Part shown: in pieces, positions 20,168 to 49,359 of the stretch
Layout of the letters: each line of letters opens with the position of its first letter
Position numbering within the stretch: position 1 is the stretch's first letter
Assembly: GCF_056712565.1 (NCBI RefSeq)
Contig: NZ_CM160072.1
Length of the DNA stretch: 64,000 nucleotides
Reading direction: 5' to 3' (one strand)
The notes under the pieces: model-generated
What the model was told of the DNA's origin: nothing
Databases searched by the model: none
The model's input: only the letters and a program-made list of their open reading frames with translations
Position numbers and translations under genes: made by a program

Positions 20168-20271
20168 CACAACGCCCCTGGAGCAAGTTACAGCATAAAA
20201 CGCATAATATTGCTGCGCTAAGAATTATTGCCCGCTGTAGCTAACGATTATATTCCTGGTGTGGCTTTGTA

Positions 20272-20306
20272 CGCCGGATAAGACGCGGCAGGCGTCGCAT
20301 CCGGCA
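20272..20306. repeat. REP element
   Basis: GCCGGATAAGACGCGGCAGGCGTCGCATCCGGC palindromic unit just downstream of rdgC stop. Confidence 0.6.
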
Positions 20307-21360: not shown

Positions 21361-22269
21361 GTGCGTATAGGTATCGATTTAGGCGGCACCAAAACTGAAG
21401 TGATTGCATTGGGCGATGCAGGGGAGCAGTTGTACCGCCATCGTCTGCCCACGCCGCGTGATGATTACCGGCAGACTATTGAAACGATCGCCACGTTGGT
21501 TGATATGGCGGAGCAGGCAACAGGGCAGCGCGGAACGGTAGGTATGGGCATTCCAGGTTCGATTTCGCCCTACACCGGCGTGGTGAAGAATGCCAATTCA
21601 ACCTGGCTCAACGGTCAGCCATTCGATAAAGACTTAAGCGCGCGGTTGCAGCGGGAAGTGCGGCTGGCAAATGACGCCAACTGTCTGGCGGTTTCAGAAG
21701 CGGTAGATGGCGCGGCAGCGGGAGCGCAGACGGTATTTGCCGTGATTATCGGCACGGGATGCGGCGCGGGCGTGGCATTCAATGGGCGGGCGCATATCGG
21801 CGGCAATGGCACGGCAGGCGAGTGGGGACACAATCCGCTACCGTGGATGGACGAAGACGAACTGCGTTATCGCGAGGAAGTCCCTTGTTATTGCGGTAAA
21901 CAAGGTTGTATTGAAACCTTTATTTCAGGCACGGGATTCGCGACGGATTATCGTCGTTTGAGCGGACATGCGCTGAAAGGCAGTGAAATTATCCGCCTGG
22001 TTGAAGAAAGCGATCCGGTAGCGGAACTGGCATTGCGTCGCTACGAGCTGCGGCTGGCAAAATCGCTGGCACATGTCGTGAATATTCTCGATCCGGATGT
22101 GATTGTCCTGGGCGGCGGAATGAGCAATGTAGACCGTTTATATCAAACGGTTCCACAGTTGATTAAACAATTTGTCTTCGGCGGAGAATGTGAAACGCCG
22201 GTACGCAAGGCGAAACATGGTGATTCGAGCGGCGTACGCGGCGCTGCATGGTTATGGCCACAAGAGTAA
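21361..22269 (+). CDS. mak: fructokinase/manno(fructo)kinase Mak (ROK family)
   Basis: GTG at 21361 after [20 protein letters not shown]... with ROK Cys motif [11 protein letters not shown]-track start 21223 would overlap rdgC. Confidence 0.9.
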
Positions 22270-22294
22270 AAAAACCAGGCAATTGGCGTATCAT

Positions 22295-22510
22295 GCCTGA
22301 TGCGACGCTTGCCGCGTCTTATCAGGCCTACAAAGTGAGCCGTCCGGTAGGCCGGATAAGGCGCTCGCGCCGCATCCGACAACAAATAACGCGCACAGTG
22401 GCGGCAACCCCCCAGTGCTCCGATGCCTGATGCGACACTGGCGTGTCTTATCAGGCCTACAAAATGAACAGTCCCGTAGGCCGGATAAGGCGTTCACGCC
22501 GCATCCGGCA
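22295..22510. repeat. BIME/REP cluster: two tandem ~125-bp units each holding a pair of inverted REP palindromes
   Basis: GCCTGATGCGACGCTTGCCGCGTCTTATCAGGCCTAC...GTAGGCCGGATAAGGCGCTCGCGCCGCATCCGAC repeated with minor differences. Confidence 0.8.
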
Positions 22511-22537
22511 ACAAGCGATGCGCACTGCGACTGCTAT

Positions 22538-23722
22538 CTACCCCAGTGGTTTCGCCAGCACCGAACTATCCGCCGCTTGCTGGCGCTTATAGCGACCATA
22601 CAGCAGCAACGACGACATCGCAGCAAACGAAAGCAGGGCGGCGGGCAGCGCCACGTAATTATATGCCAGCCCCAGCGTCAGCATCATACCACCGCAATAT
22701 GCGCCGACGGCGCTACCGAGGTTAAACGCTATTTGCCCACCTGCGGCACCTAATAACTCTCCGCCTTTGGCATTTTGCAGTAATAATATTTGTAGAGGTG
22801 CTGATAGGGCAAATAATCCCGCGCAACAAATAAAAGCAAAAATAAGCGACGTTGTTTTCATACCGCCGAAGAAAAAGAGCATCAGCAGTGCCAGTACAAT
22901 GATAAAGTCAGTCACTGCTGCAATGCGCAGTGGTGAATAACGTCCTGAAATCCTGCCACTTAGCATATTCCCCAGCACCATCCCTAGCCCAACTAACATC
23001 ATAATAAAGGTCATCGCCGTTTCCGAAAAACCGGAAATAAACATCATGTATGGCTTTACGTAGCTGAACCAGGCAAACACACCTGCGTTGCCAAACATCG
23101 TAGCGGCGAAAATTAACCACGGGGCAGGGCTGCGTAAAAAGTGAAATTGTTCGCGTAGTTTTCCTTTCGCCTCGTCGCGAATATCCGGCACCCAAAAATA
23201 GACCGATGCCATCACCGCAATATTAAAAACAGCGATCAACAAAAAGGTGTAGCGCCAGCTAAATTCCTGACTTAAATACGTTCCCAGTGGAATGCCCAGC
23301 AAATTGGCGACTGTCATCCCGGAAACCATCCCTGCCACGGCGGCGGTGACTTTGCCGGGTTTGATAATTTTTGATAACACGATCGCGCCGACGCCAAAAA
23401 ATGCACCATGCGGAAAGCCGGAAACCAGCCGACCAATGGCGAGCATCAGGTAAGACGAAGAGAGCGTGAACATGGCGTTGCCAATGACGCACAACGCCAC
23501 CAGAAACAACAAGATATGTTTGAGTGAGTAGCGGCTGGAAAAAAGCGCGATTATAGGCGCACCGACCACCACCCCCAGCGCATAATACGAGATCATATGC
23601 CCGGCGGCAGGAATCGAAATTCCTACGTTATGCGCCAGCTCCGTGAGCACGCCCATAATGCCAAATTCGGCCATCCCCAAACCAAACGTGCCCAGAGCCA
23701 AAGATAAAATAACTTTTTTCAT
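22538..23722 (-). CDS. araJ: MFS transporter AraJ
   Basis: Start at 23722 gives MKKVILSLALGTFGLGMAEFGIMGVLTEL... (394 aa, 12 TM-like segments); ORF-track start 23806 rejected. Confidence 0.92.
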   Translation of the reverse strand: MKKVILSLALGTFGLGMAEFGIMGVLTELAHNVGISIPAAGHMISYYALGVVVGAPIIALFSSRYSLKHILLFLVALCVIGNAMFTLSSSYLMLAIGRLVSGFPHGAFFGVGAIVLSKIIKPGKVTAAVAGMVSGMTVANLLGIPLGTYLSQEFSWRYTFLLIAVFNIAVMASVYFWVPDIRDEAKGKLREQFHFLRSPAPWLIFAATMFGNAGVFAWFSYVKPYMMFISGFSETAMTFIMMLVGLGMVLGNMLSGRISGRYSPLRIAAVTDFIIVLALLMLFFFGGMKTTSLIFAFICCAGLFALSAPLQILLLQNAKGGELLGAAGGQIAFNLGSAVGAYCGGMMLTLGLAYNYVALPAALLSFAAMSSLLLYGRYKRQQAADSSVLAKPLG

Positions 23723-23847
23723 ACCACCATCACAACCACCAGAACGGCTACCAATCACCGTAGCCAATAAAGTGATAGATTGCAGGATAACGACCAGCGA
23801 GGCCAAGAGATAATTCGCCCCTCTGTATTCATTATCCTGCTGAATAG

Positions 23848-47835: not shown

Positions 47836-48331
47836 AGATGTCGCGAAAAGTCGCCTGAAAATGAGTAATCCGTGGCATCTGCTTGCTGTCGGATTCGGAA
47901 GTGGATTAAGCCCGATCGTTCCTGGCACGATGGGGTCGCTGGCGGCGATTCCCTTCTGGTATCTGATGACTTTTTTGCCCTGGCAGCTCTATTCGCTGGT
48001 GGTAATGCTGGGGATCTGTATCGGCGTCTATCTTTGTCATCAAACGGCGAAAGACATGGGCGTGCACGATCACGGCAGTATTGTCTGGGACGAATTTATT
48101 GGTATGTGGATTACGCTCATGGCGCTGCCGACCAATGACTGGCAGTGGGTTACCGCCGGATTTGTGATTTTCCGTATTCTGGATATGTGGAAGCCGTGGC
48201 CGATCCGCTGGTTTGATCGCAATGTACATGGCGGCATGGGGATCATGATTGACGATATTGTCGCCGGGGTGATCTCCGCTGGCATCCTGTATTTTATCGG
48301 TCATCACTGGCCGCTGGGTATTCTGTCGTAG
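47813..48331 (+). CDS. pgpA: phosphatidylglycerophosphatase A
   Basis: 172 aa membrane protein; [32 protein letters not shown]...; overlaps thiL 3' end by 23 nt. Confidence 0.93.
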
Positions 48332-48340
48332 TTGTGCACC

Positions 48341-48380
48341 GATGCCTGATGTGACGCTTGTCACGTCTCATCAGGCCTGC
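48341..48380. repeat. REP element between convergent pgpA and yajO
   Basis: GATGCCTGATGTGACGCTTGTCACGTCTCATCAGGCCTGC palindrome. Confidence 0.7.
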
Positions 48381-48384
48381 ATAC

Positions 48385-49359
48385 CTATTTAAATCCTACG
48401 ACCGGATGCGGTTTATACGGCGTTTCCAGCTCGGCGATCTGTTCCGGCTTCAAGGTGATATCCACCGCGTTTAGCAGTTCATCAAGCTGTTCCTCCCGAG
48501 AAGTTCCGATAATCGGTGCGGCAATGCCCGGTTTACTCAACAACCAGGCCAGCGCAACTTGTGCTCGCGTTGCACCAAGTTCTTCACTGACGCCCGTTAA
48601 GCGTTCTACAATTTGTGCGTCATTTTCATTGCTTTCTTGGTAGAGATTTTTCCCCACTTCATCCGACACCAGCCGTGCGGTGGTTTCTCCCCAAGGACGC
48701 GTCAGACGGCCCCGCGCCAGCGGGCTCCATGGAATCACCGCTACGCCTTCCTGATAACACAGCGGCAGCATCTCGCGCTCTTCTTCACGATAAATCAGAT
48801 TGTAGTGATCCTGCATACTGACAAACTGCGCCCAGCCGTGCTGTTTTTGTAGTTCCAGTGCTTGAGCAAACTGCGAAGCGTGCATGGATGACGCGCCGAT
48901 ATAACGCGCTTTCCCGGCTTTTACCACGTCGTTCAGGGCTTCCAGCGTCTCTTCGATCGGCGTGTTGTAATCCCAGCGATGAATTTGCAGGATATCGACA
49001 TAATCCATGCCGAGACGGCGCAGGCTGTCGTCGATAGAGCGCAAAATTTGTGCACGGGATAATCCTTCCGGTAAATCACCAACGCGATGGAACACTTTGG
49101 TCGCAACGACCACGTCTTCACGACGGGCGAAATCCCGCAGTGCGCGACCGACGATCTCTTCGCTGCTGCCATCGGAATAGCTATTGGCGGTGTCAAAGAA
49201 ATTTATGCCGCCTTCCAGCGCACGTTTAATGATGGGACGGCTGCTCTCTTCCGGCAGTGTCCATGCGTGATTACCGCGATCTGGCTCGCCAAAGGTCATA
49301 CAGCCGAGGCAAAGTCGGGAAACACGAAGGTCGGTTTTTCCTAAGGGGTTGTATTGCAT
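48385..49359 (-). CDS. yajO: aldo-keto reductase YajO
   Basis: 324 aa; MQYNPLGKTDLRVSRLCLGCMTFGEPDRGNHAWTLPEESS... Confidence 0.93.
   Translation of the reverse strand: MQYNPLGKTDLRVSRLCLGCMTFGEPDRGNHAWTLPEESSRPIIKRALEGGINFFDTANSYSDGSSEEIVGRALRDFARREDVVVATKVFHRVGDLPEGLSRAQILRSIDDSLRRLGMDYVDILQIHRWDYNTPIEETLEALNDVVKAGKARYIGASSMHASQFAQALELQKQHGWAQFVSMQDHYNLIYREEEREMLPLCYQEGVAVIPWSPLARGRLTRPWGETTARLVSDEVGKNLYQESNENDAQIVERLTGVSEELGATRAQVALAWLLSKPGIAAPIIGTSREEQLDELLNAVDITLKPEQIAELETPYKPHPVVGFK

What the first reader, a model, noticed from the sequence alone, without database searches (positions are those of the whole stretch)
22295..22510. Tandemly duplicated BIME (two ~125-bp units of paired inverted REPs) between mak and araJ
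Two near-identical units each hold a REP palindrome (GCCTGATGCGAC...GTCTTATCAGGC) and an inverted partner (GTAGGCCGGATAAGGCG...GCATCCG). The ORF track places several 60-110-codon ORFs inside this repeat, which are artefacts. Copy number of such units varies between strains.
Basis: partly seen in the sequence, partly recalled or inferred. Interest (0 to 1): 0.3.

Follow-up and report, generated by a model that had tools for sequence, protein, structure and literature searches.

The report
Ordinary two-unit BIME-2 repeat, mak–araJ
The spacer between the convergent E. coli genes mak and araJ holds a well-known kind of selfish/structural repeat (a BIME-2: four REP hairpins in two tandem units) whose unit number differs between strains, so the finding is correct but ordinary.

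Summary
Confirmed and ordinary. The window is E. coli (100% identical to ATCC 11775 here). The 268-bp spacer between mak (+, stop ends at 22269) and araJ (−, stop 22538-22540) contains four REP hairpins arranged z2–S–y / linker / z2–S–y. This is the defining layout of a BIME-2. All four carry the exact REP tail consensus with the GTAG/CTAC foot (6 hits in the window against 0.02 expected).

The period is 129-130 bp, not about 125 bp. The units are 82-88% identical, not "near-identical".

Across 5,426 complete E. coli genomes the locus has three main alleles:
- one unit: about 54%;
- two units with a short generic linker (K-12 type): about 24%;
- two units with a 44-nt linker (this window): 1,035 genomes, 19%.

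No allele with three or more units appeared in a 60-genome systematic sample. In about 2% of genomes the spacer is interrupted; the two examples examined carry the REP-targeting elements IS1397 and IS621.

The extra linker DNA in the window allele is a diverged copy of the araJ-proximal flank, so a local duplication carried flank DNA with it. Citrobacter has no spacer or REP here. E. albertii has lost araJ and keeps one degenerate REP. The ORFs inside the repeat have no Pfam support and are not annotated. Already known kind; low interest.

The parts
21361..22269 (+). mak (fructokinase) CDS; its stop codon ends 25 nt before the first REP
   Evidence: RefSeq annotation of the 100%-identical record; translation check
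22270..22294 (.). 5' flank of the element. GGCAATTGGCGTATCAT resembles the generic motif that precedes z2 REP heads elsewhere.
   Evidence: Sequence; comparison with the generic head motif and with window 48331-48345; this reading is inference
22295..22331 (+). z2-type REP no. 1 (37 nt), CTAC foot at 22328-22331; hairpin of -21.3 kcal/mol on the + strand and -21.8 on the - strand
   Evidence: near-identical to the z2 REP 3' of rayT
22332..22346 (.). S linker no. 1, 15 nt, tail-to-tail (AAAGTGAGCCGTCCG)
   Evidence: the reference BIME 3' of rayT has a 16-nt S linker
22347..22380 (-). y-type REP no. 1 (34 nt), inverted, GTAG at 22347-22350. Its head is degraded (CATCCGAC) and it is the weakest hairpin: -14.3 kcal/mol on the + strand, -18.6 on the - strand.
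22381..22424 (.). Head-to-head linker, 44 nt. 22381-22413 is a diverged copy of the araJ-proximal flank. 22414-22424 (AGTGCTCCGAT) is the generic short head-to-head BIME motif.
   Evidence: F'/F alignment 26 of 39, with 0 of 5000 shuffles reaching the score; one copy per genome in 1,035 genomes; generic motif at the rayT and efeB loci
22425..22460 (+). z2-type REP no. 2 (36 nt). Its inner stem carries a compensatory G-C to A-U change relative to REP no. 1.
22461..22475 (.). S linker no. 2, 15 nt (AAAATGAACAGTCCC)
22476..22509 (-). y-type REP no. 2 (34 nt), identical to the y REP 3' of rayT
22510..22537 (.). 3' flank, 28 nt between the last REP and the araJ stop codon; source of the copy found in the internal linker
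22538..23722 (-). araJ (MFS transporter) CDS, convergent with mak
   Evidence: RefSeq annotation; translation

Best explanation
This is a BIME-2, the tandem-array class of E. coli REP elements. It fills the whole spacer between the convergent genes mak and araJ.

Shown here: its layout is z2 REP, a 15-nt tail-to-tail S linker, an inverted y REP, a 44-nt head-to-head linker, then z2, S and y again.

Inferred origin: the element entered this spacer in the Escherichia lineage, since Citrobacter has none. Like other BIMEs it would be a non-autonomous substrate of the REP-associated tyrosine transposase RayT. All four REPs keep the GTAG foot and the stem mismatch that RayT needs.

Inferred dynamics: unit number changes by homologous or slipped-strand exchange between the direct repeats, giving one-unit and two-unit alleles. 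In the window's lineage the second unit arose by, or is retained from, a local duplication that also copied about 33 nt of the unique araJ-proximal flank. Exchange between units and alleles has since made the locus a mosaic.

Inferred function, from what is established for REP/BIME elements and not tested here: on either transcript the hairpins form the only strong structure downstream of the stop codon. There they would protect the mak and araJ mRNA 3' ends from 3'-5' exonucleases and favour Rho-dependent termination of convergent read-through. At the DNA level a BIME-2 is a strong DNA gyrase site, which fits a place where convergent transcription piles up positive supercoils.
For: - Exact REP consensus at all four sites, far above chance.
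- Stereotyped imperfect hairpins of -14 to -22 kcal/mol; z-scores are -4 to -6 for three of the four.
- Same z2-S-y architecture as the BIME 3' of rayT. Ton-Hoang et al. 2012 describe that BIME as y + z2, and define a BIME-2 as z2 + y with a short S linker in tandem copies whose number varies between strains.
- One-unit and two-unit alleles at this locus.
- IS1397 in the loop and IS621 in the tail of the first z2 REP in other strains. Both are published REP-specific elements.
- The linker is a copy of the flank and is unique to this locus.
- No spacer in Citrobacter; a single REP remnant in E. albertii.
- No intrinsic-terminator-like site in the spacer.
- Gyrase, Pol I and Rho-termination roles are summarised in Nunvar et al. 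2010 and Tobes & Pareja 2006.
Against: - No functional claim was tested here, and no transcript-end or gyrase data were available.
- Both stop codons are 25-28 nt from the nearest REP. That is outside the roughly 15-nt range in which REPs are reported to stall terminating ribosomes (my recollection of Liang et al. 2015; I could not verify it in the held library), so that mechanism probably does not apply.
- y1 is partly degraded.
- The right end of the internal linker is a generic BIME motif. Part of the unit-to-unit similarity is therefore family resemblance rather than proof of local duplication.
- The alleles are mosaics, so the order of events cannot be read off.
- Tandem Repeats Finder did not call the array.
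Confidence: 0.93

Rival explanations
1. The two units were not produced by a local tandem duplication. A second z2-S-y pair was added by RayT-mediated strand transfer or by conversion from another BIME-2 locus.
For: The junction AGTGCTCCGATGCC that precedes unit 2 is a generic head-to-head BIME motif also seen 3' of rayT and efeB. RayT assembles multi-REP products in vitro. Unit 2 differs strongly between long-linker alleles, and W1 and W2 are no closer to each other than to units in other strains.
Against: About 33 nt of the internal linker align to the unique araJ-proximal flank, 26 of 39 with 0 of 5000 shuffles reaching the score. That linker occurs once per genome and only at this locus. 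The K-12 and window alleles share the exact variant AGTGCTCCG, which differs from the other loci examined.
Confidence: 0.2
2. The spacer is a bidirectional intrinsic (Rho-independent) terminator for mak and araJ, and only looks like a repeat.
For: Convergent genes; strong hairpins on both strands.
Against: No stem followed by a T-run was found on either strand: 0 sites, where shuffles give 1.8. The same sequences are dispersed about 39 or more times per genome.
Confidence: 0.03
3. The region encodes a small RNA of the nucleoid-associated naRNA4 type, or small proteins from the 60-112-codon ORFs.
For: Sub-threshold Rfam matches to naRNA4 (26-41 bits, gathering score 59.5). Four ORFs overlap the repeat.
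Against: naRNA4 is itself REP-derived, so weak matches are expected for any REP, and none reaches the gathering score. The ORFs have no credible Pfam family and are not annotated in RefSeq. About half of E. coli genomes lack the 126 bp that they span.
Confidence: 0.03

Closest known systems
BIME-2 (bacterial interspersed mosaic element, family 2; Gilson/Bachellier/Hofnung nomenclature as summarised by Ton-Hoang et al. 2012, PMC3333891)
   Same: Alternating z2 and y REPs, short tail-to-tail S linker (15 nt here, 16 nt in the rayT-proximal reference), tandem units, strain-to-strain variation in unit number, extragenic position between convergent genes.
   Different: The head-to-head linker of this allele is 44 nt. 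About 33 nt of it are specific to this locus and copied from the flank; it is not only the generic short motif seen in the K-12 allele. I could not obtain the published l and r motif sequences to compare.
The K-12 MG1655 mak-araJ BIME (same locus, 244-bp spacer)
   Same: Same position, same four-REP layout, and the same AGTGCTCCG junction variant.
   Different: K-12 lacks 29 nt of the internal linker, so its period is 102 bp rather than 129-130 bp. Its two units are 94.5% identical, against 87.5% here.
REPtron BIMEs flanking rayT (tnpA-REP)
   Same: z2-S-y pair; the y REP is identical to y2 of the window.
   Different: No rayT gene adjoins the mak-araJ element, so it would be a non-autonomous copy.
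BIME-1 (y + z1 with a long IHF-binding L linker)
   Same: Inverted REP pair.
   Different: The partner REPs here are z2-type (36-37 nt, 5-bp inner stem), the tail-to-tail linkers are 15 nt, and the pair is tandemly repeated. A BIME-1-like pair may sit elsewhere in the window (56298-56385).

Membership tests
REP / palindromic unit | 30-40-nt imperfect palindrome | tested here: met
   Four palindromes of 34-37 nt, each folding as a two-part stem with an internal mismatch, -14.3 to -22.2 kcal/mol.
REP / palindromic unit | Conserved GTAG (CTAC) tetranucleotide at the foot of the hairpin | tested here: met
   CTTATCMGGCCTAC matches all four with 0 mismatches. The feature is as defined in Ton-Hoang 2012.
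REP / palindromic unit | Highly repeated and dispersed in the genome, extragenic | tested here: met
It lies between the mak and araJ stop codons.
BIME-2 | Made of z2 and y REPs in alternating orientation | tested here: met
   Heads are GCCTGATGCGAC (z2) and GCCGGATGCGGCG (y). The architecture and y sequence match the rayT-3' BIME, which the literature calls y + z2.
BIME-2 | Short (S) tail-to-tail linker | tested here: met
   15 nt in both units, against 16 nt in the reference.
BIME-2 | Tandem copies, number variable between strains | tested here: met
   Two copies here. Across E. coli there are one-unit and two-unit alleles: 1,035 long-linker two-unit, about 1,315 short-linker two-unit, about 2,950 one-unit.
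BIME-2 | Head-to-head junction of type s, l or r | tested here: inconclusive
   The K-12 allele has the generic short motif. The window allele has that motif plus a 33-nt insert specific to this locus.
BIME-2 | Strong DNA gyrase binding and cleavage | not testable with these tools
   Literature property only.
BIME-1 | z1 partner REP and a long L linker with an IHF site, single copy | tested here: not met
   Linkers are 15 nt, partner REPs are 36-37 nt of z2 type, and the pair is repeated. Definition.
RayT (TnpA-REP) substrate | REP with a 5' GTAG and a stem mismatch, paired with an inverted REP | tested here: met
   The sequence features are present in all four REPs; requirements are. Actual cleavage is not testable here.
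Target of REP-specific insertion sequences | Natural IS1397 or IS621 insertion inside the REP | tested here: met
   IS1397 lies in the loop of the first z2 REP in strains 98200 and AR_0006. IS621 lies at ..ATCAGGCCT|..|CTAC.. in strain CD45. The specificity is published.

The most novel reading that the evidence does not exclude
The long-linker allele (1,035 genomes, including ST131, Nissle 1917 and ATCC 11775) is a molecular fossil. It would show that a BIME unit was gained by a host-mediated segmental duplication that co-copied unique flank DNA up to the araJ stop region, rather than by RayT transposition. The same 268-bp spacer is also a recurrent natural landing site for two unrelated REP-targeting elements: IS1397, and IS621, which I recall (not checked here) is the bridge-RNA recombinase. 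That would make it a convenient natural locus for studying BIME turnover and REP targeting.
Probability: 0.45. Interest if true: 0.2.

Novelty: already known. Interest (0 to 1): 0.1.

Why it matters
It matters little beyond housekeeping. The result confirms that the ORFs called in this spacer should be ignored. It also shows the spacer is a REP array of a textbook type, and that its length polymorphism (142, 244 or 268 bp, plus IS-interrupted forms) could serve as a simple lineage marker. The strains named among the long-linker hits (ST131, Nissle 1917, ATCC 11775) are phylogroup B2 by general knowledge; phylogroups were not assigned here. For people who study REP/BIME dynamics, the flank-derived linker and the IS1397/IS621 insertions are tidy examples of processes already described.

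Tried and rejected
- Tandem Repeats Finder at minimum score 30 found no array. The repeat was recovered by seed-and-extend instead.
- The Rfam scan gave only sub-threshold naRNA4 matches, which are REP-derived.
- The promoter/terminator scan found no terminator-like site.
- NC_000913.3, as held here, carries no REP feature at this locus, so I could not cite a curated K-12 REP name.
- The supplements of Ton-Hoang 2012 are not held, and Clément et al. 1999 is not held.
- A paper search for araJ plus REP returned only author-name hits. I could not find the Liang et al. REP/translation paper.
It still yielded E. albertii, two Citrobacter genomes and a divergent E. coli, but not E. fergusonii, E. 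marmotae or Salmonella.
- My early idea that units within a strain are homogenised (concerted evolution) holds for K-12 (94.5%) but not for the window (87.5%, no higher than between strains).
- The apparent compensatory change in the y REP (T..A to C..G) lies in the predicted loop, so I do not count it. Only the z2 change, G-C to A-U, is compensatory.
- The IS1397 junction query gave 154 genomes, more than the 122 with split flanks, so it also picks up other loci. The IS621 junction query did not discriminate between loci.

Full report
**What is there.** The window is Escherichia coli. A 471-bp query across the site is 100% identical to strain ATCC 11775 and lies between the annotated genes mak (fructokinase) and araJ (MFS transporter), which converge. 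mak ends at 22269 and the araJ stop codon is at 22538-22540, so the spacer is 268 bp.

The spacer holds four palindromes:
- z2-type REPs at 22295-22331 and 22425-22460 (GCCTGATGCGAC…GTCTTATCAGGCCTAC);
- inverted y-type REPs at 22347-22380 and 22476-22509 (GTAGGCCGGATAAGGCG…CGCATCCGRC).

The REP tail consensus CTTATCMGGCCTAC matches all four without a mismatch. The whole 64-kb window has six such sites, where 0.02 are expected by chance. A head consensus gives seven sites against 0.62 expected. Each REP folds into the stereotyped two-part stem with an internal mismatch, at -14 to -22 kcal/mol. y1 is the weakest because its head carries a G-to-A change.

**The repeat.** The two z2–linker–y pairs are direct repeats with a period of 129-130 bp. 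Identity is 82% over 96 ungapped nt and 87.5% over the 88-nt core. "About 125 bp" and "near-identical" are both slightly off. Tandem Repeats Finder did not report the array. One difference between the two z2 REPs is a true compensatory change in the inner stem, G-C to A-U.

**Which family.** Ton-Hoang et al. 2012 (PMC3333891) summarise the accepted definitions:
- REPs are 30-40-nt imperfect palindromes with a conserved GTAG at the foot.
- BIME-2 units occur in tandem copies with s, l or r flanking motifs, and the copy number varies between strains.

By chance I had fetched the BIME immediately 3' of rayT, which that paper describes as y + z2. It reads z2, a 16-nt S linker, then y, and its y REP is identical to y2 of the window. 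All the sequence features that define a REP and a BIME-2 are therefore met. BIME-1, with its z1 REP and long IHF-binding L linker in single copy, is not.

**Independent confirmation from mobile elements.** In strains 98200 and AR_0006 an IS1397 sits in the loop of the first z2 REP of this same spacer. In strain CD45 an IS621 sits in its tail, at …ATCAGGCCT|IS|…CTAC…. Both elements are published as inserting specifically into E. coli REPs (Tobes & Pareja 2006). The flanks are separated in at most 122 of the genomes. A junction query for IS1397 gave 154, so it must also pick up similar REPs at other loci. The IS621 junction query did not discriminate between loci.

**Copy number across E. coli.** Alignment of representative spacers shows three length classes:

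| Allele | Spacer | Genomes of 5,426 | Basis |
|---|---|---|---|
| Two units, 44-nt internal linker (this window) | 268 bp | 1,035 (19%) | linker found exactly once per genome |
| Two units, internal linker 29 nt shorter (K-12) | 244 bp | about 1,315 (24%) | junction at ≥95% identity |
| One unit | 142 bp | about 2,950 (54%) | remainder of the 5,302 genomes with joined flanks |

The long-linker hits include O25b:H4-ST131 strains and Nissle 1917. The one-unit figure assumes every genome with joined flanks belongs to one of these three classes. A query made of the two unique flanks joined together gave an unbiased 60-genome systematic sample: 12 long, 16 short, 30 single and 2 interrupted. None had zero units or three or more. 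The collection is not a random sample of the species.

**What the internal linker is.** The short junction of the K-12 allele (GGCAATAAGTGCTCCGATGCC) has close counterparts after y REPs at unrelated loci, 3' of rayT and of efeB, and before a z2-like REP at window 48331-48345. It is therefore a generic head-to-head BIME motif.

The window allele ends with the same motif but carries about 33 extra nt in front of it. That stretch aligns to the 3' flank between y2 and the araJ stop region at 26 of 39 positions. None of 5,000 shuffles and none of 5,000 random 37-mers from the window reached the score. I infer that a local segmental duplication copied the REP pair together with unique flank DNA. The K-12 and window alleles share the exact variant AGTGCTCCG, unlike the other loci. 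This suggests a single origin for the two-unit state, followed by a 29-nt indel.

The history is not clean, however:
- The commoner long-linker allele (strain 377323_2f) has a K-12-like unit 2.
- Strain 19SZHZ713Rt has two K2-like units.
- One-unit alleles come in at least two S-linker flavours.

The one-unit allele of ZYB39 is 98.9% identical to K-12 unit 2, and the one-unit allele of the divergent L114 is closest to window unit 1, at 92.2%. Exchange between units and between alleles is evidently frequent.

**Outgroups.** In Citrobacter werkmanii and Citrobacter sp. FP75, mak and araJ abut or overlap with no REP. In E. albertii the segment corresponding to window 22285-23750, which is the BIME plus araJ, is missing. 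mak is followed by a single degenerate y-like REP and then sbcC. The element is therefore an Escherichia-lineage acquisition.

**How it most likely works.** The anatomy is shown; the function is inferred from the family. No intrinsic-terminator-like site exists in the spacer. The REP hairpins are the only strong structures, and the spacer folds better than shuffles on both strands, with z-scores of -4.0 and -5.7.

Established roles for REP/BIME elements are DNA gyrase binding (BIME-2 in particular), DNA polymerase I binding and facilitation of Rho-dependent termination (Nunvar et al. 2010). Protection of upstream mRNA from 3' exonucleases is my own knowledge (Newbury et al. 1987). A gyrase site plus RNA 3'-end hairpins between convergent genes is a coherent reading, but none of it was tested here.

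The REPs lie 25 and 28 nt from the two stop codons. As I recall it, the reported ribosome-stalling effect needs a REP within about 15 nt of the stop codon; I could not verify that paper.

RayT's sequence requirements, GTAG plus a stem mismatch with an inverted partner REP, are present in all four REPs.

**The ORFs.** Four ORFs of 60-112 codons overlap the repeat. None is annotated in four RefSeq records, and none has a credible Pfam match; the best is E = 0.055, below the cut-off. About half of E. coli genomes lack 126 bp of the region they span.

**Verdict.** This is a BIME-2 of a long-described kind at a locus that also carries one in K-12. Strain-to-strain variation in BIME unit number is itself a published generality. 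Interest is low.

Noticed in passing
L005 526-1487, L006 3806-4692 and L007 3790-5065 (same spacer in other strains): The mak-araJ BIME is interrupted in up to 122 of 5,426 genomes. Examples are a truncated IS1397 in the loop of the first z2 REP (strains 98200 and AR_0006) and an IS621 in its tail with a CT core on both sides (strain CD45; strain C5 has the identical junction).
   Followed up: partly
L025 3471-3560 (E. albertii NBRC 107761): E. albertii lacks araJ altogether. The segment equivalent to window 22285-23750 is replaced by about 40 nt that contain one degenerate y-like REP (CAGGCCAGATAAGGCGCTCATGCCGCATCTGGCA), so mak is followed directly by sbcC.
   Followed up: partly
L019 4713-4770 and L051 139-200 (Citrobacter): In Citrobacter, mak and araJ abut or overlap with no spacer. 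A short palindrome (GTGCAACTTGTTGCAC) sits inside the araJ 3' end. The last ~7 residues of E. coli AraJ do not align to the Citrobacter protein, so the E. coli C-terminus may have been reshaped when the BIME arrived.
   Followed up: no
window 20269-20305: A solitary REP lies about 20 nt downstream of the rdgC stop codon. It has y-like arms (GCCGGATG) but a z2-like inner stem (GACGC…GCGTC), and its foot reads GTAC instead of GTAG.
   Followed up: no
window 48331-48380: A single z2-like REP with several compensated stem changes (GCCTGATGTGACGCTTGTCACGTCTCATCAGGCCTGC) is preceded by the generic TTGTGCACCGAT head motif. It is wedged between a + strand ORF ending at 48331 and a - strand ORF ending at 48385.
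   Followed up: no
window 56298-56385: An inverted REP pair with a 24-nt tail-to-tail linker: a degenerate y-like REP, then AAAGGTTTGTAACTCAGGAACTTA, then a short z1-like REP (GTAGGCCTGATAAGCGTAGCGCAGCAGGCA). It looks like a BIME-1-type element between convergent ORFs; I did not check it for an IHF site.
   Followed up: no
window 22270-22294; L001 1054-1078: The DNA just after the mak stop codon (K-12: AAAAACGTAGGCAATTGGCGCATCATGCC) reads like GTAGGC fused to the generic head-to-head motif GGCAATTG…ATGCC. It could be the scar of a further y REP that was deleted between two GGC repeats. This is speculative.
   Followed up: no
L128 1-201 (strain ERL05-1306): The rayT gene next to the reference BIME is annotated as a pseudogene with an internal stop in this strain, so some E. 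coli strains may lack an active REP transposase.
   Followed up: no
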